32,000 nucleotides of DNA from Bdellovibrionales bacterium (GTDB lineage: Bacteria > Bdellovibrionota > Bdellovibrionia > Bdellovibrionales > UBA1609): the NCBI GenBank assembly GCA_963692945.1, contig OY843585.1:450001-482000 (forward strand). The letters run 5' to 3'. The notes under the pieces are model-generated. The model was given only the letters and a program-made list of their open reading frames with translations, searched no databases and had not been told where the DNA came from. The translations under genes and the position numbers were made by a program. Shown here piece by piece: positions 8,256 through 27,109 of this stretch (its first letter is position 1; each line of letters opens with the position of its first letter).

Positions 8256-8256
8256 C

Positions 8257-11262: not shown

Positions 11263-12108
11263 ATGTATCCCCTATCTCATCTTAAAATTTCTTTTTTAGG
11301 TTGTGGTCAGATGGCACAAAGCCTAATTCAAGCTTATGTCCATCAGCCCAATTCACAGATATCTTCAAAAAATATTTTTATTTCTGGTCGTAATTTACAA
11401 AAAACAAAGCGAATTGCAGAAAAATTTAATGTGCAGATGGTTGTAGATAATGAAGAACTTTTAGATAAAAGTTCTGTTATTTTTTTATGTGTAAAACCTT
11501 TTGATGCAGAAGAGGCGATCCAAGCCTTAAGAAATAGTTTTGATTCCAATCATACTTTTATTAGTGTGATGGCAGGAGTGTCTATCAAACAGCTTCAAAA
11601 ATGGGGGTTATCTTCTCGTAGAATCGTTCGGCTTATGCCTAATATTGCTGTTTCTATAGGAGAAGGTTGTTTGCCTTTTTACAGTTATAAAAATCAAGAT
11701 TCCATTAATGCTTTTATTGAAGAATTATTAAAGTCTCTTGGACAAGTTGTGGTTTTAGATAATGAAGAATCTTTAAATGCTTTAACAGTGGCTTCAGCAA
11801 GTGGTGTTGGATTTTTCTTTGAGATTTTAGAGTATTGGATAGAGTGGTTGCAAAACCAAGGTTTTCCTTACAAAAAAGCCAGAGAAATCAGTGTGCAAAC
11901 TTTTTTAGCGACAGGGCTTTTAGCTCAAAAATATTCCCAAAAAAAGATTTTAGATTTACAAAAAGAAGTGGCTTCTGCAAAGGGAGTGACCGCTGCGGGT
12001 TTGAATACAATGAGAGAATTAGAATTGGAGAGAATTTTACGATTAAGTTTTGAAAAAGCAAGTTTAAGAGAAAAGGAATTATCTTATATAAAGTCTAAAA
12101 ACTCATAA
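11263..12108 (+). CDS. proC: Pyrroline-5-carboxylate reductase
   Basis: Rossmann N-terminus ISFLGCGQMAQSLI, then LCVKPFDAEEAI, ISVMAGVSIKQL, RLMPNIAVSIGEG and the C-terminal SAKGVTAAGLNTM motif. Confidence 0.9.
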   Translation: MYPLSHLKISFLGCGQMAQSLIQAYVHQPNSQISSKNIFISGRNLQKTKRIAEKFNVQMVVDNEELLDKSSVIFLCVKPFDAEEAIQALRNSFDSNHTFISVMAGVSIKQLQKWGLSSRRIVRLMPNIAVSIGEGCLPFYSYKNQDSINAFIEELLKSLGQVVVLDNEESLNALTVASASGVGFFFEILEYWIEWLQNQGFPYKKAREISVQTFLATGLLAQKYSQKKILDLQKEVASAKGVTAAGLNTMRELELERILRLSFEKASLREKELSYIKSKNS

Positions 12109-12178
12109 ATAACGCTTAGCAAAATAGCTCTCCCCCTAAAAGTTTTCTTTTTATCATCTTAAGCTATAGGATAATTCT

Positions 12179-12856
12179 ATGGATTTATCTAGAGATAGTA
12201 TTGTTTCCCGTCATTTTTCTAAGAAAGTTATGGGAGGGTTAAATGAGTTTGAAGTCCGTGATTTTCTTCATGTTTTGGCGGAAGAATTGAGGCATTTAAA
12301 GCAATTAAGTAAAGATCAAAATCAAAAATTAATGGCTCAAGAAGAGTTGGTCCAAGACTATAGAGATAGGGAACATATTTTGAAACAATCTATTTCTTCG
12401 GCCCAAGAAGTGGCTGATAGGATTCGTAGGGATGCTGAAAACCAAGCTCAACTGATTTTAGAAAAAGCTCAAGATAAATCAGATTCTTTAATTCAAGAAG
12501 CTCGTCATTCTCTTCAAAGTGTTTACAACGATATAGCCGATCTTAAACGACTTCATTTACAATTTAAAACGAGTTTGAAAGCGGCTTTGCAGGCTCAATT
12601 AGAATTGTTAGAACAAGGACCTCTTTTTGCTTCTAGCTTACCTTATAATTCAGAATCTTTAGCTGATAAAAATTTAAAAATTTCTAAACAAACTACAGAA
12701 CAAAATGCTGAATCTCCTGAAAGTTTAGAATCTCCTGAATCTCCTGAAAAACCTGAAAAGAATCTAGAAGACACTTTATCTGAAAGTCTAAGTTCTGATG
12801 AAGAATTAAACGCTTTAAAATCCTCTCTTCAATCTTTGGATAAGGATTTTTCTTAA
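12179..12856 (+). CDS. divIVA: DivIVA domain protein
   Basis: The N-terminus FSKKVMGGLNEFEVRDFLHVLAEELRHLK is a typical DivIVA lipid-binding/coiled-coil start. A long coiled coil follows, and the C-terminal tail has SPE/KPE repeats. Confidence 0.88.
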   Translation: MDLSRDSIVSRHFSKKVMGGLNEFEVRDFLHVLAEELRHLKQLSKDQNQKLMAQEELVQDYRDREHILKQSISSAQEVADRIRRDAENQAQLILEKAQDKSDSLIQEARHSLQSVYNDIADLKRLHLQFKTSLKAALQAQLELLEQGPLFASSLPYNSESLADKNLKISKQTTEQNAESPESLESPESPEKPEKNLEDTLSESLSSDEELNALKSSLQSLDKDFS

Positions 12857-13094: not shown

Positions 13095-14258
13095 TTGGTT
13101 AAACAAATTATTTTACAGATTTTTATGGTTTCTTTTTTAGTGGCTTGTGGTTATGCTCCACCGGCTGTTCAAACACCTGCTTCACAAATTCCATCATACC
13201 CTACAGTGCAACAACCGGCTCCACAAACTCCATACCCACAAACACAACAACCGGGATATCCGTATGTGCAACAACCAGGATATCAAATACCACCTGTTGC
13301 AACGGCACCACAACCAACTCCAAGTGCTTCATTACCTTCAAGATCAAATAATAATGATGACGACGACGATGATGATGAGGATGATGACGATGAGGATGAG
13401 GATCAATGTAGAAATAAAAAAAGTTGTGTAAAAAGGTGTAAGGCTATTTATAAGTCAAGTCGTGATGAAACCCGATGTGGTAGATTAAGTGAAGATGAAG
13501 TTGAAGATTTAGAAGATGTTTTTGAAGTTTTAGAAGATCCCACTGAAGATGATTTAGAAGATTTAGATGTAGAAGATTTAAAAAAGTTTTTGAAAGTGAG
13601 TAATACTCCTCTTGAAAGAGAATCCAATAGATACTCTTCAGCAGATGCTAAAGCTTTTTTATTTTATATTGCAGAAAATGATGAAGTTGCGGAAGTTTTG
13701 AGATCAGAAGATAGTGGTTTTGAAATTTTAGATAATCTTTTAGAAGAACTGGATGAGGATACAGTAGAGGCTTTAGTGGACCGACTTGGGAGAGGAAATG
13801 ATAGCTTTATGGAAACCATTATAGAGTATGAAAATCTTGAGGCATTGGCATGGGTTCATGAGTATTTGGAAGATGGAACAAACGGTTACAATGCAAATTG
13901 TAATGGAAATGATAGATGTATTTTTGATAAATACTGTCGTATGGCTGATGAGTTAGATGCTAGCGAAAGAAGAGACCTTTATGAAACTGGGGACTTTGAA
14001 GACTTTTTAGAGGATGATGTTAATGTTCAGCAATCTGAGATAACTAATGATGATTATGGAGTGGCTTGTGAGATAAAAACAGAAGTAAGAGCAGCAGTAA
14101 CAGGAAACACACCATCACCAGCAGTTAATAAATACGAATACAGAGTGAAATCATGGACATCAGATCTTGATAGTAGGATAGATCAAGATGTTAAATATCT
14201 TATTTGGTCTCTATATCCTTCTCATTCTATTGTTTGGCCTCCATATCTTTCTCGATAA
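13095..14258 (+). CDS. Acidic Cys-signature lipoprotein, paralogue 1 (outlier, with Pro/Gln-rich linker and poly-Asp tract)
   Basis: A TTG at 13095 lies 4 nt after GGAGG (13086-13090) and gives MVKQIILQIFMVSFLVAC (lipobox). Core is CRNKKSCVKRCKAIYKSSRDETRC plus LEDPTEDDLEDLDV and AKAFLFYIAENDEVAEVL. The ORF-track start at 13056 is less likely. Confidence 0.78.
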   Translation: MVKQIILQIFMVSFLVACGYAPPAVQTPASQIPSYPTVQQPAPQTPYPQTQQPGYPYVQQPGYQIPPVATAPQPTPSASLPSRSNNNDDDDDDDEDDDDEDEDQCRNKKSCVKRCKAIYKSSRDETRCGRLSEDEVEDLEDVFEVLEDPTEDDLEDLDVEDLKKFLKVSNTPLERESNRYSSADAKAFLFYIAENDEVAEVLRSEDSGFEILDNLLEELDEDTVEALVDRLGRGNDSFMETIIEYENLEALAWVHEYLEDGTNGYNANCNGNDRCIFDKYCRMADELDASERRDLYETGDFEDFLEDDVNVQQSEITNDDYGVACEIKTEVRAAVTGNTPSPAVNKYEYRVKSWTSDLDSRIDQDVKYLIWSLYPSHSIVWPPYLSR

Positions 14259-14274
14259 AGAATACTCTACTTAT

Positions 14275-14603
14275 TTTCGCACCTGACTTTTTTGCATCGC
14301 TGTTTTTCTCTTCATTGCTTTACTTATTTTCTGAAAAACAATTTACAAAAAACCAGTAGTTTTTCTCTCTGCAAAAACCAGTAGTTTTTCTATCTACAAA
14401 AACCAATAGGTTTTCTCTAGTTCCATTTCCAAAACTCTAGTTCAAACATAAAATTCTATCTGCAAAAACCAATCTGCAAAAAATAGCAGTTTTTCTCTAG
14501 TTCGCTATAAGTAAGAACTCTTTTCTTTTTAGGTGTTTGAGGAGCTCCTACGATGAAAATCTCCTAAAAAGAAAAGAGTATTAGAACTGAACTAGAGTTT
14601 TGT
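14275..14603. repeat. Array of modular intergenic repeats, including the 113-bp left direct repeat (14491-14603)
   Basis: Three tandem copies of the (A/G)CAAAAACC-NNNN-GTTTTTCTCT motif lie at 14346-14420. The CAAAACTCTAGTTC termini are present, as is the hairpin module CTTTTCTTTTTAGG..CCTAAAAAGAAAAG. Confidence 0.8.
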
Positions 14604-14613
14604 AAATAGAGTT

Positions 14614-15039
14614 TTAATCAGAAGTTTCAGAAAGCTTCTTAGGTTTTCTTTTTTTGGGATTTACATAGTTTATATTGATTTTATCACAAATTTGACTCAT
14701 ATAAACTTCCATATGGCTTAAATGATTTACTTCTATTCTATTTATATTATCTTTTATTCCTATTATATTTTTTTTCATTCCTGTTATATCTTTTTTTAAA
14801 TCACCTGTTGTTCTATTTATATTATCTTTTATTCCTATTATATTTTTTTTTATTCCTGTTATATCTTTTTTTAAATCACCTGTTGTTCTATTTATATTAT
14901 CTTTCATTTCTACTATAGTTTCTTTTATTCCTGTTATATCTTTTTTTAAATCACCTGTTGTTCTATCAAAATAGTTTTTAACCATTTCCCACATTGTTTT
15001 TTGTTCTTCAGATATATAGTTTGAATTATCTTCACTCAT
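14614..15039 (-). CDS. Hypothetical protein with 3x 25-aa repeat (RTTGDLKKDITGIKKNIIGIKDNIN)
   Basis: There is a strong RBS, AAGGAGG, and an ATGA start/stop overlap with the upstream coiled-coil gene. The 75-bp DNA repeats lie at 14740-14964. Confidence 0.72.
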   Translation of the reverse strand: MSEDNSNYISEEQKTMWEMVKNYFDRTTGDLKKDITGIKETIVEMKDNINRTTGDLKKDITGIKKNIIGIKDNINRTTGDLKKDITGMKKNIIGIKDNINRIEVNHLSHMEVYMSQICDKININYVNPKKRKPKKLSETSD

Positions 15040-15365
15040 AAAACCTCCTTTATTTCGGTTTTAAGACTCTCTATTTTTTCATCTAGTTTATCTATCCTTG
15101 TATCTAGTTTTTTTATTTTAACATTTAGATCAACTACTTTTTCATCCAGCCTGTCTATTTTTCCAGATAACCCATCTACCTTTATATCTACTTTTGAATC
15201 TAGATTATCTATCTTTGAATCTAGATTTTCTATCTTTAAATCTAGATTATCTATCTTTAAATCTAGATTTTCTACTTTTCCACCTAATGTTTGCATTTCC
15301 ATAGATAACTTTTTTATTTCAAAAAGAATTTCATTTTGTCCTAAAGCATTTGCATTCATCGTCAT
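15036..15365 (-). CDS. Coiled-coil repeat protein (LDxKIDNLD heptads), paralogue of 23896-24309 but lacking its TM tail
   Basis: The N-terminus MNANALGQNEILFEIKKLS.EMQTL is shared with the right-hand copy. It contains heptad repeats NLDLKIDNLDLKIENLDSKIDNLDSKVD. Confidence 0.75.
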   Translation of the reverse strand: MTMNANALGQNEILFEIKKLSMEMQTLGGKVENLDLKIDNLDLKIENLDSKIDNLDSKVDIKVDGLSGKIDRLDEKVVDLNVKIKKLDTRIDKLDEKIESLKTEIKEVL

Positions 15366-15566
15366 TTTTTCTTCCTCTTTTTAGTGTCACTATTGTTTTT
15401 ATAAAAAATCATTTTTGAACAAGAATATCTTAACATAGATTGTAAAAAAATTCCATCCAAAAGACTTTCACTCATTACTAAAGCAAATATTACTGCTCCT
15501 TATAACTTCTAAAAGCCGTTTTTTTACAATTTTTTTGTATTACTGACAAATATCGGACAAAACTCT
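15055..15566. repeat. Left arm of large inverted repeat (partner 23695-24185)
   Basis: The reverse complement aligns with 23695-24185. This includes a 90-nt perfect match (15388-15477 vs 23784-23873) in the leader upstream of the coiled-coil genes. Confidence 0.85.
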
Positions 15567-15670
15567 AGTGTGTGAACTTTTATTTTCACGAGATTTGAAG
15601 AGTGTCCCTTTTGCGATGAAAAGCTCGTTAAAATAAGAGTAGGAAATACTTTTTTGAACGAGAGTTTTGT
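15558..15670. repeat. Single hairpin repeat module with terminal inverted repeats CAAAACTCTAG / CGAGAGTTTTG
   Basis: The internal hairpin is CTTTTATTTTCACGAG...CTCGTTAAAATAAGAG. Its first 45 nt or so recur at 24316-24360. Confidence 0.75.
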
Positions 15671-15882
15671 AAATTAAGACTTTTGTCCATTATTGATTTT
15701 TCTTGTGTTTGTTTACAACCATTTACCCTTAAACTATTTAAGTAGATAGCTTCATTTGGAACAAAAAAAGACTAAAATACAGCCATTTTTGAGGAGTCAT
15801 AGATTATTTATAAAATTTTTAAAGTTTAAAACCGACTTAACCGATGAATTTATTACTTGGAAAAGAAAAATGGAGGTTTTTC

Positions 15883-16893
15883 ATGAAACATTTTAAATAT
15901 ATAATTTTTTTACCAGCCTTATTGTTTTTAGTAAATTGTATTACACAGCCAGCAGATCCTGTTGTTCCAATTGTTACGAAACCAGCAAAATCAGCACCAG
16001 CACCTAGACCAGAATCTTATTATATTGAAAAAGCTAAGAGAGATTTAGATAAAGCAGAGACTTTAGCAAGAGCTAAAAATAAAAGAGATAGAGGTCCAAC
16101 TTGTGAAGGGGATGATGATTGTGAAGAAATCTGTGATGATATTTATAGAAGTCGTAGAGATCAAAACGATTGTGAAGAGTTCAGTGTTGCTCAAGTTGAA
16201 AGATTTGAAGAGATATATGAAATTTTAGAAGATCCCGATGAAGATGATCTTCAAGATATTGATGTATCTGAAGATGGAGACTTTGATGCTTTTATAAATA
16301 TAAGTATTGAGCCTTTACATAAACTAGTTGGAAAATACTCCTCAAGAGAGGCTAAAGACTTCTTAGCTTGGATTGCTAATAATGAAGATGTAGCTGAGCG
16401 TCTTGAAGATGAAGATGATGATTATGAAGTCCTTGATGCCCTTTTAGACGAATTAAATACTGAAGCTTTCACTGCTCTTGCAACTAATATTGATAGCAGT
16501 GATAACTTTATGGATCTTGCTGTTGTAGCGAGTAATGAAAAGGCTTTAGAGTGGATTCATGAATATCTTGAAAGTGAGCATGATAACTGTAGCAGTGATA
16601 CTAATACGAACAAAGAGGCATGTTTAACACACTATTGTGCCTTAGGAGCAGATATGGATGATGATAATGCGGAAGACTTACTAGGCGACTATGAATACTT
16701 TCAAGATTATATAGATGATATCATTTCAGATGAAATCTTTGGTGATACTAGTACTGCCGCAGATGGTGACACTCGAGAATCTGGCCACTGGGATGCTGAT
16801 GAAGACAGTGATAACTATATTGAAGAGTATGATGATATAGATGGTGATTGGTGGAGAGCTCCAACAAATACAGGCGGAGGTATCTGTCCATAA
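15883..16893 (+). CDS. Acidic Cys-signature lipoprotein, paralogue 2
   Basis: ATG at 15883 follows GGAGG (15872-15876). Signal is MKHFKYIIFLPALLFLVNC. Core motifs are CEGDDDCEEICDDIYRSRRDQNDC, LEDPDEDDLQDIDV, AKDFLAWIANNEDVA and a C-terminal WDADEDSDNYIEEYDDIDGDWW. Confidence 0.88.
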   Translation: MKHFKYIIFLPALLFLVNCITQPADPVVPIVTKPAKSAPAPRPESYYIEKAKRDLDKAETLARAKNKRDRGPTCEGDDDCEEICDDIYRSRRDQNDCEEFSVAQVERFEEIYEILEDPDEDDLQDIDVSEDGDFDAFINISIEPLHKLVGKYSSREAKDFLAWIANNEDVAERLEDEDDDYEVLDALLDELNTEAFTALATNIDSSDNFMDLAVVASNEKALEWIHEYLESEHDNCSSDTNTNKEACLTHYCALGADMDDDNAEDLLGDYEYFQDYIDDIISDEIFGDTSTAADGDTRESGHWDADEDSDNYIEEYDDIDGDWWRAPTNTGGGICP

Positions 16894-16915
16894 GATAATT
16901 ATCAATTTTAAATTT

Positions 16916-16950
16916 AAAAAGCCACTTTCAAAAGAAGTGGCTTTTTTTTT
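16916..16950 (+). terminator. Rho-independent terminator (bidirectional-looking)
   Basis: AAAAA-GCCACTT-tcaaaag-AAGTGGC-TTTTTTTTT lies immediately after the paralogue 2 stop. Confidence 0.75.
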
Positions 16951-17150
16951 AAACTCTAGTTCAATTTCCAAAACTCTAGTTCTACCCTTTTTACTTTTTG
17001 AGCTTTCATCGTAGGAGGGGATACTCTTCAACCTCAAAAAGTAAAAAGGGTATTCCTAGAGAAAAACTACTGGTTTTTGCATGAAGGGCTTTGTTCTTCA
17101 AAGCTCGTTAGAATAAGAGTAGGAAATATTTTTTTGAACTAGAGTTTTGT
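16951..17150. repeat. Composite of hairpin repeat modules
   Basis: AAACTCTAGTTC occurs twice. There is an 18-bp stem, CCCTTTTTACTTTTTGAG...CTCAAAAAGTAAAAAGGG, then CTAGAGAAAAACTACTGGTTTTTGC, with GAACTAGAGTTTTG at the end. The same modules occur inverted at 23458-23620. Confidence 0.8.
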
Positions 17151-17244
17151 AAAGCTAGACTAAAGTTTTATTTTTCTTTTTTTTGTCATAGGTTTAATTG
17201 TTGCAGGTTACTATGAAACATAGATTTTAAAGAGGAGAACTTTC

Positions 17245-18282
17245 ATGAGATATGTTTCGTTTCTATCCGTTTTTTTATTATTTGTGAATTGCACATCGGA
17301 ACCAACAAAAACAAAAGTTGTTCCTACACCAGAACCTAAATCAGACATTTATTATATTAAAAGAATTGAAAGAGATATAAATAGAAAATATGTTTTAGAT
17401 AAAGCCAAAGCGCAAGCAGGAAAAGTTTGTAAAGGTGATGAAGACTGTGAAGACATTTGTGATGATATTTATAGCAGTCGTAGAGAAAGAAATGATTGCG
17501 AAGAGTTAAGCATTACTCAAGTTAATAGATTTGAAGGGATATATGAAACTTTAGAAGATTCCGATGAAGATGATCTTCAAGATATTGATGTTTCTAAAGA
17601 TGGAGACTTTGATGTTTTTATAAATGTAAGTATTGAACCTTTACATAAATTGGTTGGAAAATACTCCTCAAGAGAGGCTAAAGATTTTTTAGCTTGGATT
17701 GCTAATAATAAAGATGTAGCTGAACTTCTTGAAAACGAAGATGATGATTATGAAGTTTTAGAAAGGCTTCTTGGTCGTTTGGGTGCTTCTGATAATCTCT
17801 TTGAAGCTCTTAAAAAAAATCTTGATGGTGGAGACACTTTTATAGATCTTGCTGTTACAGCAGATAATGAAGTGGCTTTAGAGTGGATTTATGAATATCT
17901 TGAAGAAAAAGATTCTAACTGTAAATTAGATACTGATGCAGGTAGAGAAGCTTGTTTAGAATCTTATTGTGGATTAGCAGGAGATATAGAAGATGACAAT
18001 GCTAACCATTTACTAGGTTATGATTTTTTTGAAGGTTATATAGAAGATATTATTGAAGATAAAATCAATGCTGATCCGGATACAAATGATGGTGCTGAAA
18101 CACCGGATTGTAATATTCCTCTTTCGAACCCGGTAACTCTAACTTATACAATTGCTACTTGTCCTAGTGGTGTTTGTGAGATTTCTGGTTGTAATGGTAG
18201 AGCATGGGATGCTGACCCAAATAGTGATAACCAAATTGAAGATATAGATGATTTAGATGATTGGTGGACAGATCTTTGTTAG
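17245..18282 (+). CDS. Acidic Cys-signature lipoprotein, paralogue 3
   Basis: RBS GAGGAG. Signal is MRYVSFLSVFLLFVNC and core is CKGDEDCEDICDDIYSSRRERNDC. It carries a unique Cys-rich insert (TPDCNIPLS...CPSGVCEISGCNG) and ends WWTDLC. Confidence 0.88.
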   Translation: MRYVSFLSVFLLFVNCTSEPTKTKVVPTPEPKSDIYYIKRIERDINRKYVLDKAKAQAGKVCKGDEDCEDICDDIYSSRRERNDCEELSITQVNRFEGIYETLEDSDEDDLQDIDVSKDGDFDVFINVSIEPLHKLVGKYSSREAKDFLAWIANNKDVAELLENEDDDYEVLERLLGRLGASDNLFEALKKNLDGGDTFIDLAVTADNEVALEWIYEYLEEKDSNCKLDTDAGREACLESYCGLAGDIEDDNANHLLGYDFFEGYIEDIIEDKINADPDTNDGAETPDCNIPLSNPVTLTYTIATCPSGVCEISGCNGRAWDADPNSDNQIEDIDDLDDWWTDLC

Positions 18283-18307
18283 TAAAATTAAAAACCGGAG
18301 GTTATTT

Positions 18308-19249
18308 ATGAAATATTTAAAGTATATAATTTTTTTACCAGTTTGTTTATTTGTTGTGAATTGTGTCCAACAAATACCGCCTGTTGCTCCTACTAAATCA
18401 GATACTTATTATGATACAAGAAATCAAGATGATGATGACAGAGATGAAATTTTAAGACTGGCTATAGAAGCTGGGGGAAAAGCTTGTAGCACAGATGATG
18501 ATTGTAGAGATGATTGTAGAGATATTTACAGTCGTCGTAAAGAAAAAAATGAGTGTGAAGAGTTAAGCATTACTCAAGTTGATAGACTTAAAACCATTTA
18601 TGAAACTTTAGAAGATCCGGATGAAGATGATCTTTTAGAAATTGATGTTACTAAAAATGGAGACTTTGATATTTTTATAAATATTGATATTAAGCCTCTA
18701 CATGATGCGGTTGGAAAATATAAAAAAGGAGAAGCTGGGGATGTTTTGGCTTGGATTGCTAAACACACAGAAGTGGCTACTATTTTTTCAAAAGAAGATA
18801 ATGATTACGAAGTCTTAAGTCGTTTGCTTAAGAAGCTGGATTCTAACACATTTACAGCACTTGGAACTCGTATTGAAAGCAGGAAAAATTTTATGGATCT
18901 TGCTGTTGTAGCAAGTAATGAAGCGGCTTTAGAGTGGATTTTTGAATACATTGAAGAAACAGACAATGACTGTAAAGAAAGTGATGATTCTAACAGGGAA
19001 GATTGTTTAGAATCTTATTGTGGCTTAGCAGAAGATATGGATGAAGATAATGCAGATGGATTATTAGATTATGATTTTTTTAGTGGGCTCATAGAAGATT
19101 TTATTGAAGATGGAATCAATGGTGATGATGATACAAGTAATGGTGATGACAGACCTGGTTCTGGTAAAGCGTGGGACGCTGATCCTGGAAGTGATAGTCG
19201 TTTTGAAGACATTGATGATTTAAATGAATGGTGGACAGATCTTTGTTAA
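18308..19249 (+). CDS. Acidic Cys-signature lipoprotein, paralogue 4
   Basis: ATG at 18308 follows CCGGAGG. Signal is MKYLKYIIFLPVCLFVVNC and core is CSTDDDCRDDCRDIYSRRKEKNEC. It ends WWTDLC. Confidence 0.88.
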   Translation: MKYLKYIIFLPVCLFVVNCVQQIPPVAPTKSDTYYDTRNQDDDDRDEILRLAIEAGGKACSTDDDCRDDCRDIYSRRKEKNECEELSITQVDRLKTIYETLEDPDEDDLLEIDVTKNGDFDIFINIDIKPLHDAVGKYKKGEAGDVLAWIAKHTEVATIFSKEDNDYEVLSRLLKKLDSNTFTALGTRIESRKNFMDLAVVASNEAALEWIFEYIEETDNDCKESDDSNREDCLESYCGLAEDMDEDNADGLLDYDFFSGLIEDFIEDGINGDDDTSNGDDRPGSGKAWDADPGSDSRFEDIDDLNEWWTDLC

Positions 19250-19321
19250 AATATTGGAAAAAAAGGATTTATAAAATTTTAAAAGTAACTTAATCAACGA
19301 AAAGAAAAATGGAGGTTTTTT

Positions 19322-20344
19322 ATGAAACATTTTAAATATATAATTTTTTTACCAGCCTTATTGTTTGTGGTAAATTGTACTACGCAACCAGTAGCTCCTA
19401 TTGTTGAAAAAAAAGCACCAGTCCCAGCACCTAAACCAGAATCTTATTATATTGAAAAAGCTAAGAGAGATTTAGATAAAGCAGACACTATAGAAAGAGG
19501 TAAAAAGAAAAGAGATAGAGGTCCAATTTGTGAAGGGGATGATGATTGTGAAGAAATCTGTGATGATATTTATAACAGTCGTAGAGACAGAAATGATTGT
19601 GAAGAGTTAAGTGTTGCTCAAGTGGAAAGGTTTGAAGAGATGTATGAAATTTTAGAAGATCCTGATGAAGATGATCTTCAAGATATTGATATGTCTGATG
19701 CTGGAGACTTTGATGTTTTTATAAATATAAGTATTGAACCTCTACATAAATTGGTTGGAAAATACAATACAAGAGAGGCTAAAGACTTTTTGGCTTGGAT
19801 TGCTGGAGATGAAGATGTAGCTGAAATTCTTGAAGATGAAGATGATGATTATGAAGTTCTTGATACTCTTTTAGACGAATTAAATACGGATGCTTTCCTT
19901 GCTCTTGCAGTTAATATTGATAGCAGTGATAACTTTATGGATCTTGCTGTTGTAGCGGGTAATGAAAAGGCTTTAGAGTGGATTCATGATTATCTTGAAA
20001 GTGAGCATGATGACTGTAAATTAGAAACTAATGCAGGAAAACATAATTGTTTAGTAGGCTATTGTGCCTTAGGAGTAGCTATGCAGGATCGTAATGCGGA
20101 AGACTTACTAGATAACCATGAATACTTTCAAGATTATATAGATGATCTTATTTCAGATAAAATCAATGGTGATGATACTATTGTCGGAGAGGGTGAAACT
20201 CGTACAACAACCAAATGGGATGCTGATGAAGACAGTCCTAACCAAATTGAAGAGTATGATGATTTAAATGAATGGTGGACAGGTCCAGCCGACGAAAAGG
20301 GTGAGGGTGGTTTCTGCACAACAGTTGAAGCAAGCAGAAGCTAA
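19322..20344 (+). CDS. Acidic Cys-signature lipoprotein, paralogue 5
   Basis: RBS GGAGG. Signal is MKHFKYIIFLPALLFVVNC and core is CEGDDDCEEICDDIYNSRRDRNDC. The 5' UTR and signal region are nearly identical to paralogue 2. Confidence 0.88.
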   Translation: MKHFKYIIFLPALLFVVNCTTQPVAPIVEKKAPVPAPKPESYYIEKAKRDLDKADTIERGKKKRDRGPICEGDDDCEEICDDIYNSRRDRNDCEELSVAQVERFEEMYEILEDPDEDDLQDIDMSDAGDFDVFINISIEPLHKLVGKYNTREAKDFLAWIAGDEDVAEILEDEDDDYEVLDTLLDELNTDAFLALAVNIDSSDNFMDLAVVAGNEKALEWIHDYLESEHDDCKLETNAGKHNCLVGYCALGVAMQDRNAEDLLDNHEYFQDYIDDLISDKINGDDTIVGEGETRTTTKWDADEDSPNQIEEYDDLNEWWTGPADEKGEGGFCTTVEASRS

Positions 20345-20420
20345 CGATTTTGATAAGTCAGTTACTATAAAAAATAAACCTCATAATAAAGAGGTGAATC
20401 ATTTTATAAATCTATAAACT

Positions 20421-21242
20421 ATGAAGTTGTTATTCTATTTTCTAATCTCCTTTTTCTTAATGTCTTGTGAAGATAATTTTGAGGAGAGGTTTAATTCTTT
20501 AGGAGATGGAAAGACTTCTTCAGAATTTTATCTTTCCTACAGGCAGCGGCATCCAACCAGAGCAAAATTTTTAACAGAAGCTGCAGTCTTGTATAATAAA
20601 AATGAGGTTTGTAAAGATTTAAAGGCTTGTTCCAATCTGTGTGGAAAATTATTTCAATATGATTTTGACCAAAAAGATTGTAGAGATTTACCTGTTTCTT
20701 TAGTAAACAGATTTAATTTTATTTATAAAACTTTTGAAAATAAGAATTTCAAAGCCCTTCCAACATTCAATCTGTTTGATCTCAAAATTTTTCTAAGCTT
20801 TAGTCTAGAACCTTCGGTTAGATTGTTTAGTAAACTGGGTTCATTGACTGCAAAAGGCTTTTTAAAGCAACTGGCTTCCAATTGGGATATAGCCCAGATC
20901 TTTATTCAGGAAGATCTAGACTTTATTTTGTTAGAAACTCTATTAAATGAAATTGGAAATGAACCGATAAAGGCTTTAGGAGAAACTATAGAGAGTGGAG
21001 CCTCTTTTCAAGAAATTGCTTTATTCAAACAAAATGATTTTGCAATTTCTTTTATTCATAATTTTTTTAAAAAATTATGTAATAATGAAGAAAGATGTAT
21101 TTTAAATCATTACTGTTTGGTTTCTAAGGGTTGGGATAAAAAGACTTTAATTGAATTAAGTCATTTTAAAAGTTTGAAGGAGATTTTACAAAAACATAGA
21201 GGACAAAATGATACATTACAATCTCTTTGTCCTATCTTGTAA
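20421..21242 (+). CDS. Cys-signature lipoprotein, paralogue 6 (divergent, not acidic)
   Basis: Signal is MKLLFYFLISFFLMSC. It has the same Cys spacing (CKDLKACSNLCGKLFQYDFDQKDC) and colinear motifs (FLSFSLEP, AKGFLKQLASNWDIAQIF, CNNEERCILNHYC). The RBS is weak. Confidence 0.78.
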   Translation: MKLLFYFLISFFLMSCEDNFEERFNSLGDGKTSSEFYLSYRQRHPTRAKFLTEAAVLYNKNEVCKDLKACSNLCGKLFQYDFDQKDCRDLPVSLVNRFNFIYKTFENKNFKALPTFNLFDLKIFLSFSLEPSVRLFSKLGSLTAKGFLKQLASNWDIAQIFIQEDLDFILLETLLNEIGNEPIKALGETIESGASFQEIALFKQNDFAISFIHNFFKKLCNNEERCILNHYCLVSKGWDKKTLIELSHFKSLKEILQKHRGQNDTLQSLCPIL

Positions 21243-21255
21243 AAAGGAGTTTATT

Positions 21256-22356
21256 ATGTGGAAAATATTTCAATGGTCACTGATTCTTTTTTGTATGCTT
21301 TTGTTGAGCTGTGGAGAGCAACAAAATAGTAGTGTTACAAAGGAAACTCCAGTAGATCCAGCTCCAGCTGTTGAAAAAGTTGTTACAGATGATCAGCTAG
21401 AAAAATCGGAAAAGAAAGTTGAATCAGAAAGAAGGCGGCTTAAACAAAATTTAGTTTTAAAAACAGATGTAGATGATCGTTACTCAACAACTAATTCATC
21501 TTCTTCTTTTACTGGTAACAGAGAATGTGGTGATTATGATGATTGTCGTGTCATTTGTGATCGTATCAAGAGAAATAACAGCCGTTGCTTTTCATACTCT
21601 TACAATATTGTTGAAGATATGGAACAAGCTTTACTCACCATAAGAAATATTGATGAAGTCAATCGTGTAGATATTGATCCTTATATTTTTGAAGCTATAT
21701 TGACACTTGGAACATCGGTCCTTTCTGATTTAATAGAAGATACAATGAGTGAAGGAGATTTAAAAAGTTTTTTAGCTTGGGTCGCTCTTAATGAGGATAT
21801 TGCTAGAGTGTTAAGCAATAAAGATCGCTCTGGTAAAATTTTGGAAAAAGCTTTTGATGAATTAGGTCGGCTTCAAGATGGAGTAACAAAACATTATGAA
21901 TTTATAGGATTAAACACAGGTTTAATTACAGACGATGACACTTTCTTTTATTTAGCTTCTGATGAAGACAATGAAAAAGCTTTTGCAATGGCTTATGATA
22001 TTTTAAACTCTGGTTCTTGTAGGAGTATAACTTGCCAACAGCAGATTTTATGTGCAAGGGAGCATCGTAGTCGTAGTAGATCTTCGCGTCGTCTCTTTGG
22101 TAACACAAGGGGGATTTCTCTTTGTAGAACTTCTTCCGAAGCGAGAAGAAGCTCTAGATCATCAAACACTTGTTATGTCCATGGAAGTTCTGTTTGGAGT
22201 TATCTTTATGATTTGATAGATGATAAAGAAATAAGAAGAGCACCATCTGAGTTCAGGGTAAAACCTTTAGGGGTGAAAAGGTGTAATGATGTTTGTGGAC
22301 GAACTTCTAGTAAAAATCAAAAATGTAGTTTATTTAATCCAGAGGAACTTAGGTAA
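21256..22356 (+). CDS. Cys-signature lipoprotein, paralogue 7 (divergent, Arg/Ser-rich basic C-terminus)
   Basis: ATG at 21256 follows AAGGAG. Signal is MWKIFQWSLILFCMLLLSC, with CGDYDDCRVICDRIKRNNSRC and LKSFLAWVALNEDIARVL. The C-terminal tail is HRSRSRSSRR...RRSSRSS. Confidence 0.82.
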   Translation: MWKIFQWSLILFCMLLLSCGEQQNSSVTKETPVDPAPAVEKVVTDDQLEKSEKKVESERRRLKQNLVLKTDVDDRYSTTNSSSSFTGNRECGDYDDCRVICDRIKRNNSRCFSYSYNIVEDMEQALLTIRNIDEVNRVDIDPYIFEAILTLGTSVLSDLIEDTMSEGDLKSFLAWVALNEDIARVLSNKDRSGKILEKAFDELGRLQDGVTKHYEFIGLNTGLITDDDTFFYLASDEDNEKAFAMAYDILNSGSCRSITCQQQILCAREHRSRSRSSRRLFGNTRGISLCRTSSEARRSSRSSNTCYVHGSSVWSYLYDLIDDKEIRRAPSEFRVKPLGVKRCNDVCGRTSSKNQKCSLFNPEELR

Positions 22357-22368
22357 TAGGAGGATCTT

Positions 22369-23196
22369 ATGAAGATTTTTAAAATTGTAACAACAATAAT
22401 AATTGGTTTTATATTTTTGTCTTGTATACAGGGAAGGCGACCAGTTGATTTTTCTACTATATTTGCAGCTTCTACTGGTGAGTCTAGTGCTAAAACTTCT
22501 AAAAGGAGAAGTTCTTCTAAAAGAGTAAGAAGCTCCTGTGTTGATGATGAGGATTGTGAAGACATTTGTGAAGATATTTATGACGATGATGACGATGATG
22601 GTGATGGAGTGATTGAAAGATGTCTTAAATTATCTAAGAAAACCATTGGTCATTTTGATACCATTATAGATTATTTGTCTGACCCTACATTGAGAAATGT
22701 GAGGACGGTTAAAGAAGAATACAGCGATGAATTTGAAGATTTAATAAATGTTTCTTTATCTCCTTGGATAGATGTTGCTGATAGTGTGAGTCCGACAGAA
22801 GCTGAAGCTTTATTAACTTTTATAGCTTCATCTGATGTGATTGCATCGGCTTTAAAAAAGGGTTCAAGAAATTATGAAGGTTATGATAAATATGAAGGAA
22901 TTAAAGAACTCTTAACAGAAGCTCGTGGAAGTGTTAATGCTGAGATCTCACGTGCTGGAGGTGGTGGGGATACTTCTACATACACTATTGTAACCCCCAG
23001 TAAATGTAATACGTTTTATTACGCTCTTTGTGAGTTAGGCATTTCTGGAAGTGATACTTTTAGTGAGATAGCTGTGACTGAGGAAAATACACATGCTACA
23101 AGTATAAGAGATTCTATTTTACTCGCTGCTTGTGATACAGATATTAGTCGTTGGGTAGTTCTTACTAATAATAGTGATAGTTGTTATAGAGACTAA
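22369..23196 (+). CDS. Acidic Cys-signature lipoprotein, paralogue 8 (divergent)
   Basis: RBS AGGAGG. Signal is MKIFKIVTTIIIGFIFLSC, with CVDDEDCEDICEDIYDDDDDDGDGVIERC, LINVSLSP and AEALLTFIASSDVIASAL. Confidence 0.82.
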   Translation: MKIFKIVTTIIIGFIFLSCIQGRRPVDFSTIFAASTGESSAKTSKRRSSSKRVRSSCVDDEDCEDICEDIYDDDDDDGDGVIERCLKLSKKTIGHFDTIIDYLSDPTLRNVRTVKEEYSDEFEDLINVSLSPWIDVADSVSPTEAEALLTFIASSDVIASALKKGSRNYEGYDKYEGIKELLTEARGSVNAEISRAGGGGDTSTYTIVTPSKCNTFYYALCELGISGSDTFSEIAVTEENTHATSIRDSILLAACDTDISRWVVLTNNSDSCYRD

Positions 23197-23694: not shown

Positions 23695-24185
23695 GAGTTT
23701 TGTCCGGTATTCGTGAGTAATACAAAAAAGTTGTGAAAAAAACTGCTTTTAGAAGTTATATGGAGCAATAATATTTGCTTTAATAATGAGTGAAAGTCTT
23801 TTGGATGGAATTTTTTTACAATCTATGTTAAGATATTCTTGTTCAAAAATGATTTTTTATAAAAACAATAGTGCGACTAAAAATAGGGAGAAAAAATGAT
23901 GAACGCCAATGCTTTAGGACAAAATGAAATTCTTTTTGAAATAAAAAAGTTATCTACACAAATGCAAACATTAGATTCAAAGATAGAAAATCTAGATTCA
24001 AAGATAGATACAAAGATAGATGGATTATCTGCAAGAATAGATAGATTGGATGAAAAGGTGGTTGATTTAGATGTTAAGGTAGATAAATTAGATACAACAG
24101 TAAATGCAAGAATAGATAAATTAGATGAAAAAGTAGATACAAGGATAGATAAATTAGATGAAAAAGTAGAGGGTCTTAAAACCGA
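23695..24185. repeat. Right arm of large inverted repeat (partner 15055-15566)
   Basis: See the left arm. The 90-nt perfect match is at 23784-23873. Similarity ends right after CTTAAAACCGA (24185 / 15055). Confidence 0.85.
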
Positions 24186-24309
24186 TCATGCTGAACTCAG
24201 TGCAAGTGTGGTTAGTATAAAGTATTATCAAAAAGTTTCTACATGGCTTATTACTTTGCTTCTCCCTACATTTATGGGTATTGCTGTTGCAGTCATTAAA
24301 TATGTTTAA
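23896..24309 (+). CDS. Tail-anchored coiled-coil repeat protein (IDKLDEKVD repeats plus C-terminal TM)
   Basis: The N-terminus MMNANALGQNEILFEIKKLSTQMQTL is shared with 15036-15365. It has repeats of (I/V)DxLDxK(V/I) and a C-terminal TM, TWLITLLLPTFMGIAVAVIKYV. Confidence 0.8.
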   Translation: MMNANALGQNEILFEIKKLSTQMQTLDSKIENLDSKIDTKIDGLSARIDRLDEKVVDLDVKVDKLDTTVNARIDKLDEKVDTRIDKLDEKVEGLKTDHAELSASVVSIKYYQKVSTWLITLLLPTFMGIAVAVIKYV

Positions 24310-26070: not shown

Positions 26071-27109
26071 TCATTTTTCGGTTTTTGTTTTTCGTAAACG
26101 CCTATCTATTATTAACTGTCTAAACTGATAAACTCTTTTGATCATCTTTTTTCGTTTAGCAATTTTTTTTGAAAAAGGGAGTATGGTGTATTTGTCATAG
26201 CTGGCTTTTGAAAAACGAGTTGTATCGTCAATCTGAGTTCCTTCAAGATTCGCTCCTGTCAAATCCGCTTTTTGCAGGTTGGCTCCTTTAAGGTTGGTTT
26301 TTTGAAGCTGAGCCCTTTGTAGATTGGCTCCATAAAGATTAGTTTTTTGAAGCTGAGCTTCTTTAAGATTGGCATTTTCAAGATTCGCTGCTGTAAGATT
26401 AGCCTCTTGAAGCTGAGCCCTTTGAAGATTAGCACTATCAAGCTGAGCTCCTTTAAGGTTGGCTTGACGAAGATGAGCTCCATAAAGATTAGCTGAACTG
26501 AGGCTAGCTTTTTGAAAATTAGTTCGGTTAAGACGAGCAAATTGCAACTCATTCATTTGTACAGAGGATTTTTGCAACTGGCTATCTTGAAGTTTAGATT
26601 TGTGAAGTACAACACCTCTAAGATCAGCTCCTTGAAAATTCATTTTTTTTAAATCAACTCCTCGTAAATTAACAAACCGAAGATCTGCTTCTTGAAAATA
26701 AGCTCCTTGCACATGAGCTTCTTGAAAATTAGCAAATGAAAGTTTAGCTTTTTGAAACTGAGTTTTTTGAAGTTTGGCTTTACTAAAATTAGCCCATAGA
26801 AGGTCAGCTCCTTGAAAATTCGCTCCTCTAAGATCAGCTCCTTGAAAATTGGCGTTGCGAAAACTAAATTTTCTAAGATCAGCTCCTTTAAGGTTAGCCC
26901 CTTTAAGATCGACTCCTTGAGATATAGTGCTTTTCAAGTCTTTTCCTTTTAAATCTTTTATGGTGCAAATGCCATCACATATCTTTTCCTTTTAAATCTT
27001 TTATGGTGCAAATGCCATCACATACTTTTTTATAACGAGGTTTTGTTGCTACACTTTGTTGAATTGATGTAAGCAAAATGCAAAAACTTAAAGTGATAAT
27101 AAATCTCAT
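26071..27109 (-). pseudogene. Secreted pentapeptide-repeat protein disrupted by a 43-bp tandem duplication (signal peptide uncoupled from the repeat body)
   Basis: ATG at 27109 encodes MRFIITLSFCILLTSIQQSVA TKPRYKKVCDGICTIKDLKGKD, then runs into TGA at 26975-26977. Removing one 43-bp copy joins it in frame to ...DLKSTISQGVDLKGANLKGADL, the 288-aa pentapeptide ORF whose track start at 26937 is a TTG. Confidence 0.75.
26939..27024. repeat. Perfect 43-bp tandem duplication (2 copies)
   Basis: TCTTTTCCTTTTAAATCTTTTATGGTGCAAATGCCATCACATA at 26939-26981 is repeated exactly at 26982-27024. Confidence 0.92.

What the first reader, a model, noticed from the sequence alone, without database searches (positions are those of the whole stretch)
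13095..23196. Eight tandem paralogues of a hyper-acidic lipoprotein with a fixed Cys signature that I cannot assign to any named family
Seen in sequence:
- Eight consecutive + strand genes: 13095-14258, 15883-16893, 17245-18282, 18308-19249, 19322-20344, 20421-21242, 21256-22356 and 22369-23196.
- Each starts with a signal peptide ending in a lipobox Cys: FLVAC, FLVNC, LFVNC, FVVNC, FVVNC, FLMSC, LLLSC, IFLSC.
- All share a colinear core. It begins with C-x5-C-x3-C-x(9-17)-C (for example CEGDDDCEEICDDIYRSRRDQNDC).
- The core continues with QVERFEEIYEILEDPDEDDLQDIDV, FINISIEPL, an amphipathic AKDFLAWIA..DVA block and DYEVLD.LL.EL.
- It ends with a second Cys trio (C-x5/10-C-x4/5-C, the last as YC in paralogues 1-6).
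- Paralogues 2-5 add a C-terminal WDAD..SD..IE..DDL.EWW motif and are extremely rich in Asp/Glu.
- Paralogue 6 keeps the scaffold but is not acidic. Paralogue 7 ends in an Arg/Ser-rich basic tail. Paralogue 8 has a poly-Asp insert.

Inference: I recognise no enzymatic motif. The conserved Cys pattern plus lipidation points to disulfide-bonded periplasmic or surface proteins that are diversifying by duplication.

Speculation: they could be a variable surface-lipoprotein repertoire, Ca2+/cation-binding proteins, or neutralisers of cationic effectors.
Basis: partly seen in the sequence, partly recalled or inferred. Interest (0 to 1): 0.85.

Follow-up and report, generated by a model that had tools for sequence, protein, structure and literature searches.

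The report
Unnamed acidic lipoprotein family, eight-gene array
Eight neighbouring genes encode lipid-anchored, disulfide-rich, all-helical and mostly extremely acidic proteins of an unnamed family found so far only in small-genome Bdellovibrio-like bacteria, where the same kinds of copies recur in the same order, so it looks like an old multi-part cell-envelope system of unknown function.

Summary
All eight + strand ORFs (13095-23196) are real paralogues. A profile built only from 19 proteins of other genomes retrieves exactly these eight among 143 window ORFs (E 5.5e-118 to 5.5e-24). All have a signal peptide ending in a lipobox Cys and the invariant C-x5-C-x3-C-x9-17-C motif.

No Pfam, NCBIfam, PADLOC or PDB-sequence hit exists. 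Two confident AlphaFold models (pLDDT 88.6 and 86.5) are all-alpha and match nothing in the PDB by Foldseek.

Every named relative is a 'hypothetical protein' from a MAG labelled Bdellovibrionales.

The array is not simply a fast-diversifying repertoire. It sits at a conserved locus (proC-divIVA, then the array) in three other genomes. Paralogues 6 and 7 have well-supported orthologues in the same order elsewhere; 1 and 8 have weaker ones. Only the hyper-acidic copies 2-5 look like a lineage-specific expansion.

Acidity is specific to the family and positionally conserved inside the folded core. No conserved His, Ser or Lys catalytic motif is visible.

Best reading: a non-enzymatic, disulfide-stapled, envelope-anchored set of binding proteins. 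Its acidic members would bind cations or cationic partners, possibly the conserved Arg-rich loop of paralogue 7. That mechanism is inferred, not shown.

The parts
13095..14258 (+). Paralogue 1. 387 aa, TTG start, lipobox LVAC. An 85-aa Pro/Gln-rich tether is followed by a poly-Asp/Glu run and then the core. Net charge -53. Its C-terminus lacks the final Cys.
   Evidence: E 1.3e-57 with the non-window profile. Groups with the first array gene of L010, bootstrap 63%.
15883..16893 (+). Paralogue 2. Acidic subfamily, 336 aa, lipobox LVNC, net charge -66.
   Evidence: E 5.5e-118. 75% identical to paralogue 5.
17245..18282 (+). Paralogue 3. Acidic subfamily, 345 aa, lipobox FVNC, net charge -53. A Cys-rich insert brings the mature protein to 13 Cys.
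   Evidence: E 6.8e-110.
18308..19249 (+). Paralogue 4. Acidic subfamily, 313 aa, lipobox VVNC, net charge -51.
   Evidence: E 1.6e-104.
19322..20344 (+). Paralogue 5. Acidic subfamily, 340 aa, lipobox VVNC, net charge -60. This is the protein modelled with AlphaFold2.
   Evidence: Model pLDDT 88.6, pTM 0.85, about 15 helices. No PDB fold match.
20421..21242 (+). Paralogue 6. Non-acidic subfamily, 273 aa, lipobox LMSC, net charge 0. First gene of the tightly packed trio 6-7-8.
   Evidence: E 7e-45. Orthologues in L002, L010 and L011, bootstrap 100% and 93%. Model pLDDT 86.5 with the same helix layout.
21256..22356 (+). Paralogue 7. 366 aa, lipobox LLSC, net charge -6. Carries a conserved Arg/Ser-rich, Cys-containing loop followed by CYVHG..VWSYLYDLI. 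Starts 13 bp after paralogue 6.
   Evidence: E 3.7e-26. Orthologues in L002, L010 and L011 (96%), and in L006-L008 (91%).
22369..23196 (+). Paralogue 8. 275 aa, lipobox FLSC, net charge -22. Has a poly-Asp insert inside the 4-Cys motif (C-x17-C). Starts 12 bp after paralogue 7.
   Evidence: E 5.5e-24. Last position of the array also in L010, L011 and L002. Orthology is weakly supported (50% or less).
11263..12856 (+). proC (11263-12108) and divIVA (12179-12856). These form the conserved upstream anchor of the array.
   Evidence: Pfam hits. The same order, FHAx3-DUF192-T2SSF(-) then proC/divIVA(+) then family genes, occurs in L009, L010 and L011.
14397..15706 (-). Insertion that splits paralogue 1 from paralogue 2. 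It holds two coiled-coil ORFs (14614-15039 and 15036-15365, - strand) bracketed by MITE-like repeats. It is not part of the family.
16936..17186 (.). MITE-like repeat with inverted termini (ACAAAACTCTAGTTC ... GAACTAGAGTTTTGTAAA). It accounts for the 351-bp gap between paralogues 2 and 3.

Best explanation
**What it is (largely shown)**
- An array of eight genes for Sec/SPII-exported, N-terminally lipid-anchored proteins of a previously unnamed family.
- Each protein has three parts. A flexible Pro-rich tether of about 20-90 residues comes first. A short basic helical hairpin follows. The rest is a compact all-alpha domain of about 210-260 residues stapled by four (in some copies five or six) disulfides, starting with the invariant C-x5-C-x3-C-x9-17-C motif.
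- The set is old and differentiated, not a fresh burst of copies. A position-1 type, an expandable hyper-acidic type (here four copies, 2-5) and a fixed terminal trio 6-7-8 recur in that order, downstream of proC-divIVA, in related small-genome MAGs labelled Bdellovibrionales.

**How it most likely works (inferred)**
- The proteins are non-catalytic binding modules displayed in the periplasm or on the cell surface.
- The acidic subfamily presents a folded, positionally conserved polyanionic surface (net -50 to -80). That surface would bind divalent cations or cationic macromolecules electrostatically.
- The co-conserved, tightly coupled paralogues 6-7-8 would act with them. Paralogue 7 carries a conserved Arg-rich loop that is a plausible docking site for an acidic partner, which would give a hetero-oligomeric envelope assembly.
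For: **Family membership and export**
- Independent profile. Lipobox Cys conserved in 81% of aligned family members and present in 124 of 162 representatives that start with Met.
- No twin-arginine motif is visible in the eight N-termini printed. From established knowledge, Sec export of an unfolded chain argues against a cytoplasmically inserted Fe-S cofactor.

**Disulfides**
- 120 of 124 representatives have an even number of non-lipid Cys. Cys70, 76, 80, 93 and 248 are conserved in at least 99% of members.

**Fold**
- Two models with pLDDT 88.6 and 86.5 share the same all-alpha layout.
- No internal repeat was detected.

**No enzyme signature**
- The invariant or near-invariant columns are Cys, hydrophobic residues, one Glu-Asp pair and one Asn. 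There is no conserved His, Ser or Lys.
- No Pfam, NCBIfam or PADLOC hit.

**Acidity is specific and structured**
- The other 22 window proteins have ordinary or basic pI.
- In 22 acidic-subfamily members from at least 12 loci (GC 31-55%), 32 profile columns are at least 80% Asp/Glu.
- The pLDDT>90 core of paralogue 5 has 65 Asp/Glu against 14 Lys/Arg in 215 residues.

**Old ordered set**
- Trees. Conserved locus.
- Gaps of 13 and 12 bp within the trio 6-7-8.
- The Arg-rich loop of subfamily 7 is conserved from 31% to 41% GC genomes.
- Distant genomes L006-L008 keep a minimal trio: acidic, type 7, then a third member.
Against: - Nothing here demonstrates binding, localisation, complex formation or expression.
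- Single-copy members occur in some genomes (L001, L003, L005, L013, L015). A multi-subunit complex therefore cannot be obligatory for every member.
- No canonical Ca2+-binding motif (EF-hand, Excalibur) scores in Pfam.
- Orthology of paralogue 8 is weakly supported.
- The promoter and terminator scans were no better than shuffled sequence, so operon structure rests only on gene spacing.
Confidence: 0.5

Rival explanations
1. A variable surface-lipoprotein repertoire. The copies would be alternative antigens or adhesins, expressed one or a few at a time, that let a host- or prey-associated bacterium vary its surface. This is the logic of mycoplasma Vlp/Vsa or Borrelia Vsp/Vlp.
For: - Copy number differs between genomes and expansions are lineage-specific: 1, 2, 3, 6 or 8 copies, with 58% bootstrap for monophyly of paralogues 2-5.
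- dN/dS between paralogues 2-5 is 0.5-0.7, and in four consecutive 30-codon windows of the C-terminal part of the 2-versus-5 comparison dN exceeds dS.
- Inverted copies of a coiled-coil gene cassette (92% over 178 nt) flank paralogues 2-8 and could allow inversion of the segment.
- MITE-like repeats lie in the gaps of the array.
Against: - Paralogues 6 and 7 (and more weakly 1 and 8) have orthologues in fixed order in genomes that differ by 10% in GC.
- Acidic residues are positionally conserved.
- There are no homopolymer or short-repeat tracts beyond the 8-9 nt A/T runs expected at 31% GC.
- Every copy is full length, and seven of the eight have their own ribosome-binding site. There are no silent cassettes.
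- Overall dN/dS is below 1.
Confidence: 0.12
2. Arrays of immunity or decoy proteins. The lipid-anchored acidic proteins would neutralise cationic toxins acting in the periplasm or at the surface. Those toxins could be the bacterium's own lytic enzymes, rival effectors, or host antimicrobial peptides and lysozyme. This is comparable to tandem T6SS immunity lipoproteins.
For: - Tandem paralogue arrays and lipoprotein anchoring are typical of periplasmic immunity genes (established knowledge).
- Extreme negative charge suits the capture of cationic ligands.
- The arrays attract insertions of defence and mobile genes: AbiEii and a restriction-modification system in L010, a YhgA-like transposase and Fic next to single copies.
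Against: - No toxin, T6SS, CDI or lytic-enzyme gene lies next to the family in the window or in any of about 15 loci.
- No PADLOC hit.
- The main locus is a conserved housekeeping neighbourhood: proC, divIVA, and ftsW-murG-murC in L011.
- Paralogue 6 is uncharged.
Confidence: 0.13
3. Accessory lipoproteins of an envelope transporter, or fixed periplasmic polyanions. They would deliver a cationic substrate to, or receive one from, an ABC-2 exporter, or they would set the periplasmic ion balance (Donnan potential) in place of anionic glucans.
For: - In L006 and L007 the three-gene set is followed directly by an ABC-2 ATPase and permease.
- The ATPase gene overlaps the last lipoprotein gene by 28 nt in L007 and by 10 nt in L006.
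Against: - No ABC-2 transporter lies near the array in the window, L009, L010 or L011.
- The linkage is therefore confined to one sub-lineage.
- There is no homology to known substrate-binding proteins.
Confidence: 0.08

Closest known systems
Helicobacter cysteine-rich proteins (Hcp; Sel1-like repeat family)
   Same: - Exported, multi-paralogue family in a host-associated bacterium.
- All-alpha architecture stapled by several disulfides, with no enzymatic motif.
- This comparison is from my own knowledge of the family.
   Different: - No Sel1 or TPR profile hit at E <= 1.
- No internal sequence repeat.
- Lipid-anchored and hyper-acidic.
- The Cys pattern is one N-terminal 4-Cys cluster plus a C-terminal group, not one Cys pair per repeat.
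Calsequestrin and other high-capacity acidic cation-binding proteins
   Same: - Folded, very acidic surface: 25-30% Asp/Glu, net -50 to -80.
- No canonical EF-hand.
- Plausible low-affinity, high-capacity cation binding.
- This is a functional analogy only, from my own knowledge.
   Different: - No sequence or fold similarity. Calsequestrin is built from thioredoxin-like alpha/beta domains, whereas these proteins are all-alpha.
- These are bacterial lipoproteins with disulfides.
- Cation binding has not been tested.
Tandem periplasmic immunity lipoproteins of T6SS effectors (for example the three Sel1-like Tli5b genes next to PldB in Pseudomonas aeruginosa)
   Same: Tandem paralogous lipoproteins with helical folds, thought to act by binding rather than by catalysis (from my own knowledge).
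   Different: - No adjacent effector or T6SS genes in any locus examined.
- No profile hit.
- The chromosomal position, next to divIVA, is conserved.
Variable lipoprotein gene families of mycoplasmas and Borrelia (Vlp/Vsa, Vsp/Vlp)
   Same: Clustered paralogous lipoprotein genes whose copy number varies between strains and lineages.
   Different: - No phase-variation tracts or silent cassettes.
- Strong orthology and a fixed gene order across divergent genomes.
- A conserved folded core instead of variable repeats.

Membership tests
Bacterial lipoproteins (signal peptidase II substrates; PROSITE PS51257-type signal) | A short N-terminal region with Lys/Arg, then a hydrophobic stretch, then a lipobox ending in Cys within about the first 35 residues. 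| tested here: met
   - All eight have the Cys at residue 16-19, preceded by a hydrophobic run and by N-terminal Lys/Arg.
- The Cys column is conserved in 81% of aligned family members.
- This was tested by regular expression and by eye only. SignalP and LipoP were not available.
Bacterial lipoproteins (signal peptidase II substrates; PROSITE PS51257-type signal) | Small residue (Ala, Gly or Ser) at position -1 before the Cys. | tested here: inconclusive
   - Paralogues 1, 6, 7 and 8 have Ala or Ser.
- Paralogues 2-5 have Asn (VNC), which is outside the classical rule.
- Homologues at the same aligned position mostly have Ser, Gly or Ala.
Any Pfam-A or NCBIfam family | Profile score above the curated cut-off. 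| tested here: not met
   - The best hits for the eight paralogues have E >= 0.015 and score far below the cut-offs.
- Ten longer family members gave no hit.
- Precomputed Pfam is '-' for all database relatives.
Sel1-like repeat / Helicobacter cysteine-rich proteins | Repeated Sel1 motif of about 36 residues detectable by profile, with one disulfide per repeat pair. | tested here: not met
   - No Sel1 or TPR hit at E <= 1.
- hhalign of the N-terminal half against the C-terminal half of the core gave probability 0.6%.
EF-hand / Excalibur-type Ca2+-binding proteins | DxDxDG-type loop with an acidic residue at position 12, detectable by profile. | tested here: not met
   - No EF-hand or Excalibur Pfam hit.
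- The D-x-S-x-D-G-D-F-D stretch occurs only in paralogues 2-5 and two relatives, and has Ile at position 12.
- Non-canonical cation binding is not excluded.
Toxin-immunity or anti-phage defence modules | An adjacent cognate toxin or effector gene, or a match to a known defence protein profile. | tested here: not met
   - No PADLOC hit.
- No toxin or effector domain among the neighbours in the window or in about 15 related loci.
Phase- or antigenically variable lipoprotein systems | Switching machinery: homopolymer or short-repeat tracts, an invertible promoter, or silent cassettes. | tested here: inconclusive
   - No tracts beyond 8-9 nt A/T runs, and no short tandem repeats.
- All copies are full length.
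- Inverted repeats of a coiled-coil gene cassette flank paralogues 2-8. No population data were available to test for inversion.
Known protein folds (PDB) | Significant structural alignment of a confident model to a solved structure. | tested here: not met
   - Foldseek against the PDB gave a best E of 0.25 and TM <= 0.31 for both models. The hits were only generic ARM, PPR or designed helical-repeat proteins.

The most novel reading that the evidence does not exclude
These genes encode a clade-specific envelope machine with a new fold. It would be a hetero-oligomer of at least three ancient paralogous lipoproteins: an acidic type, the type-7 member with its Arg-rich loop, and a third type. 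Its amplifiable polyanionic subunits would form a surface or periplasmic 'charge shield', or a device that strips divalent cations. Small-genome Bdellovibrio-like symbionts or predators would use it to withstand host cationic defences or to destabilise the Mg2+/Ca2+-bridged outer membrane of prey.
Probability: 0.15. Interest if true: 0.8.

Novelty: new variant of a known kind. Interest (0 to 1): 0.55.

Why it matters
- The family is sizeable: 799 clusters at 50% identity, 690 of them with E <= 1e-10. It has no name, no Pfam model, no solved or recognisably similar structure, and no studied member.
- It is confidently foldable and strongly conserved. It is organised as an ordered multi-gene set at a fixed chromosomal site in a poorly known group of small-genome, AT-rich bacteria labelled Bdellovibrionales. 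One relative's isolate name mentions a sea cave.
- Folded proteins with net charge -50 to -80 tethered to a membrane are unusual. Learning what they bind could reveal how these bacteria manage cations or cationic attack at their envelope.

Tried and rejected
**Searches that found nothing**
- Pfam, NCBIfam and PADLOC scans of all paralogues, and Pfam on ten longer relatives.
- A PDB sequence-profile search found only designed helical repeats, with E >= 0.011.
- Foldseek against the PDB for two models showed no real match.
- Rfam and tRNA scans found only tRNA-Val at 3497.
- Four literature searches turned up no description of such a family.

- The word-indexed homologue search never reached beyond 41 proteins, even with a 140-sequence alignment, and gave no organism names other than 'Bdellovibrionales bacterium'.
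- Exact-sequence look-ups of window proteins returned no names.
- The contig look-up for the window's own protein failed.

**Tests with a negative or uninformative result**
- A search for a conserved functional partner gene failed. Neighbours differ between lineages.
- The ABC-2 transporter link holds only in L006 and L007, where the downstream genes were annotated.
- The promoter and terminator scans were not above shuffled expectation.
- Halophilic or whole-proteome acidity is rejected, because the other window proteins are neutral to basic.
- Internal repeat architecture is rejected.
- Co-variation of Cys presence did not resolve the disulfide pairing.
- One bootstrap run timed out and was redone with a faster distance method.
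- I could not verify from the paper's main text that isolate 'RHO3_bin_17' (L006) comes from the sponge study PMC8163846.

Full report

Yes.

With the proposed starts, seven are preceded by a GGAG-type ribosome-binding site. Paralogue 1 uses TTG at 13095, five bases after GGAGG. Paralogue 6 has no convincing site.

Each begins with a Lys/Arg-containing N-terminus, a hydrophobic stretch and a lipobox Cys at residue 16-19.

The eight align colinearly. Four Cys are invariant (C-x5-C-x3-C-x9/12/17-C), as are six other columns.

To avoid circularity I built a profile from 19 family members that do not come from this genome. Among the 143 window ORFs of at least 50 aa it finds exactly these eight, at E 5.5e-118 to 5.5e-24, and nothing else even at E <= 10.

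Net charges of the mature proteins are -53, -66, -53, -51, -60, 0, -6 and -22. The other 22 proteins of the window are neutral to basic. The acidity therefore belongs to the family and not to the proteome.

**2. What the proteins look like**

After the lipid-modified Cys comes a Pro-rich, low-confidence linker. It is about 20 residues long in paralogue 5 and about 85 Pro/Gln-rich residues in paralogue 1. A basic helical hairpin follows, and then a compact all-alpha domain.

AlphaFold2 with a 25-sequence alignment gave pLDDT 88.6 and pTM 0.85 for paralogue 5. It gave pLDDT 86.5 and pTM 0.81 for the uncharged paralogue 6. The two share essentially the same succession of about 15 helices.

hhalign of the two halves of the core shows no internal repeat.

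Cys counting supports disulfides. Of 124 family representatives with a recognisable lipobox, 120 have an odd number of Cys from the lipobox Cys onward. That leaves an even number after the lipid Cys, most often eight. Cys70, 76, 80, 93 and 248 (paralogue 5 numbering) are conserved in at least 99% of aligned members.

No twin-arginine motif is visible in the eight N-termini printed. From established knowledge, Sec export of an unfolded chain makes a pre-assembled Fe-S cofactor unlikely. I could not inspect coordinates, so the disulfide map is not established.

**3. Is it a known family?**

I found no evidence that it is.
- Pfam-A and NCBIfam give nothing better than E 0.015, far below the cut-offs.
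- Ten longer relatives have no Pfam domain either.
- PADLOC gives nothing.
- A profile search of all PDB sequences returns only designed helical repeats at E >= 0.011.
- Foldseek of both models against the PDB gives a best E of 0.25 and TM-scores of at most 0.31, to generic ARM, PPR or designed solenoids.
- Four literature searches found no description.

**4. How widespread is it?**

The word-indexed search found only 23-41 relatives.

The exhaustive profile search of 1.84 billion cluster representatives found 799 clusters at E <= 0.001, of which 690 reach E <= 1e-10 and 286 reach E <= 1e-30.

Among the best 164 proteins, 156 carry the 4-Cys motif. The median net charge is -40, with a range from -83 to +15.

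The only names any source gives are 'hypothetical protein [Bdellovibrionales bacterium]'.

All eight loci recovered from 185,579 species-representative genomes are MAGs with that same label. Their chromosomes or contigs are 1.0-2.5 Mb long, and the loci themselves have 30-55% GC. One isolate name mentions a sea cave. The patterns used for that scan were narrow, so absence from other phyla is not shown.

**5. Genomic organisation: the main new result**

Scanning the fetched loci with the family profile shows tandem arrays elsewhere too:

| Locus | Family copies | Note |
|---|---|---|
| L002 | 6 | The array fills almost the whole 6.3-kb contig |
| L010 | 8 | |
| L011 | 6 | |
| L012 | 3 | |
| L006, L007, L008 | 3 each | |
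| L009 | 2 | |
| L001, L003, L005, L013 | 1 each | |

A further single called copy lies in L015; that locus was not scanned with the profile.

In L009, L010 and L011 the array lies at the same place as in the window. Three FHA genes, DUF192 and a T2SSF/TadC-like gene sit on one strand. proC (absent in L009) and divIVA sit on the other strand, and the family genes follow. In L011 the array is uninterrupted and is followed, a few genes later, by ftsW-murG-murC.

Neighbour-joining trees with 200 bootstraps resolve ancient subfamilies:
- Paralogue 6 groups with the corresponding genes of L002 and L010 (100%), and with L011 as well (93%).
- Paralogue 7 groups with those of L002, L010 and L011 (96%), and also with the second gene of the L006-L008 trios (91%).
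- Paralogue 1 pairs with the first array gene of L010 (63%).
- Paralogue 8 pairs with the last gene of L010 only weakly (50%).
- The hyper-acidic genes mostly cluster by genome. Support is 58% for paralogues 2-5, 99% for the three in L012, 100% for the L009 pair and 75% for the L010 pair. This indicates repeated lineage-specific duplication of that one subfamily.

The order is the same wherever it can be read: position-1 type, then acidic copies, then 6, 7 and 8. In the window, 6-7-8 are separated by only 13 and 12 bp.

Subfamily 7 carries a conserved insertion. It is an Arg-rich, Cys-containing loop followed by CY[VI][HQ]G..VWSY. The insertion is recognisable from the 31% GC window to the L006-L008 loci (36-41% GC).

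**6. Selection and variability**

Pairwise dN/dS among paralogues 2-5 is 0.51-0.69. In four consecutive 30-codon windows of the C-terminal part of the 2-versus-5 comparison dN exceeds dS, but these windows are too small for a formal test.

There are no homopolymer or short tandem-repeat tracts of the kind used for phase variation.

In the acidic subfamily, 32 profile columns are at least 80% Asp/Glu across 22 sequences, and 55 columns are at least 60%. They are concentrated around the 4-Cys motif, the LEDPDEDDLxDID segment and the EDDDY segment. The confidently modelled core of paralogue 5 holds 65 Asp/Glu against 14 Lys/Arg in 215 residues. The charge is therefore a conserved property of a folded surface, not a disordered tail.

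**7. Neighbours give no conserved partner**

BLAST of window proteins against loci L001-L008 shows no shared neighbours other than the family itself.

Single copies lie next to YhgA-like transposases, Fic, Sel1 proteins or housekeeping genes.

In L006 and L007 the trio lies between mutS, a LuxR-type regulator and a thioesterase upstream, and an ABC-2 ATPase and permease downstream. The ATPase gene overlaps the last lipoprotein gene. This link is absent in the window, L009, L010 and L011.

The arrays tolerate insertions. The window has coiled-coil genes and MITE-like repeats. L010 has an AbiEii pair and an SNF2 helicase, methylase and BglII-like block.

**8. Interpretation**

*Shown:*
- a new, sizeable family of exported proteins with a lipoprotein signal;
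- an even complement of conserved Cys;
- a confident all-alpha model without a PDB counterpart;
- family-specific, positionally conserved acidity;
- an old, ordered set of differentiated paralogues at a conserved locus, with expansion of the acidic type.

*Inferred:*
- The proteins are binding modules rather than catalysts. The conserved positions are Cys, hydrophobic residues, one Glu-Asp pair and one Asn.
- The acidic members bind cations or cationic partners.
- The fixed trio, with the Arg-rich loop of paralogue 7, suggests the types work together and perhaps bind one another.

I put 0.5 on this composite statement. Most of the uncertainty lies in the mechanism.

*Rivals:*
- A variable surface repertoire (0.12) is disfavoured by the orthology, the positional conservation and the absence of switching signals.
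- Immunity or decoy arrays against cationic toxins (0.13) are disfavoured by the absence of any neighbouring toxin.
- Transporter accessory proteins or fixed periplasmic polyanions (0.08) are supported only in one sub-lineage.

**9. Novelty and score**

This is not a member of any named family. As a kind of thing, a clustered paralogous envelope-lipoprotein family, it has many precedents, so I rate it 'new variant of a known kind'.

It is more interesting than a typical hypothetical-protein cluster. The model is confident yet unmatched, the charge is extreme and conserved, and the gene order is conserved. The function remains open. Interest 0.55.

Noticed in passing
window 3580, 14431/14591, 15559, 16970/17138, 23458/23613/23675, 24319/24531, 31686: A MITE- or REP-like intergenic repeat of about 150-230 bp, with inverted termini ACAAAACTCTAGTTC ... 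GAACTAGAGTTTTGTAAA. The 11-mer AAAACTCTAGT occurs 12 times against 0.08 expected (aligned). Copies fill the gaps of the lipoprotein array. One lies just after tRNA-Val.
   Followed up: partly
window 15036-15365 (-), 23896-24309 (+), 14614-15039 (-): A small coiled-coil gene family. Two copies share the N-terminus MNANALGQNEILFEIKKLS and lie in inverted orientation (92% over 178 nt of adjoining DNA). They flank paralogues 2-8, so homologous recombination could invert that 8-kb segment. The 14614-15039 ORF is built from 21/33-nt tandem repeats. Pfam and PADLOC hits are generic coiled-coil matches only.
   Followed up: partly
window 28760-30184 (-): A 474-aa protein with net charge +81 (25% Lys/Arg, pI 10.2). 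It has weak Pfam hits to INT_rpt (integrase repeat unit) and to BspA-type LRR_5, and no evident signal peptide. It is striking a few kb from proteins of net charge -60, but no link between them was established.
   Followed up: no
window 3824-4495 (+): An ankyrin-repeat protein with what looks like an N-terminal signal peptide (MKFFIFLFSILFSFQTYSQ), pI 9.96. This is a eukaryote-like repeat protein of the sort common in host-associated bacteria.
   Followed up: no
window 5438-11220 (-); L009, L010, L011: A conserved block of three FHA-domain proteins, DUF192 and a T2SSF/TadC-like membrane protein, transcribed divergently from proC-divIVA. The block is syntenic in three related genomes.
   Followed up: partly
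L006 8304-15063; L007 7477-14156: In more distant relatives a three-gene version of the family is preceded by mutS, a LuxR-type HTH gene and a 4HBT thioesterase. It is followed by an ABC-2 ATPase, whose start overlaps the last lipoprotein gene by 10-28 nt, and then a permease.
   Followed up: partly
L010 8038-9830 and 11446-16092: The eight-copy array of this relative is interrupted by an AbiEii toxin-antitoxin pair and by a block of SNF2 helicase, N6/N4 methylase and BglII-like endonuclease. The window likewise has an N6_N4 DNA methylase at 27783-28619 with no obvious endonuclease next to it.
   Followed up: no
window 20421-21242 (+): The exact 273-aa sequence of paralogue 6 is not in the public protein collection. 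A 260-aa protein from the same contig (P0165) is probably the same gene called from Met14, which deletes the signal peptide and leaves the lipobox Cys at residue 3. The two were not aligned. This is likely a start-codon annotation error, because orthologues keep the lipobox.
   Followed up: partly
L014 779-4219: A 1146-aa 'protein' matches the family profile in six stretches on a 6.9-kb long-read contig. Several other 450-600-aa representatives contain two family domains. These are either real fusions or arrays merged by frameshift errors. This was not resolved.
   Followed up: no
window 26071-26937 (-) and 27269-27676 (+): A pentapeptide-repeat protein with a strong Pfam hit. Also a small basic protein with what looks like a signal peptide (MSAYILLFLSIFFSLEAYS...HSGRLNSQGCH), pI 10.0, of unknown function.
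   Followed up: no
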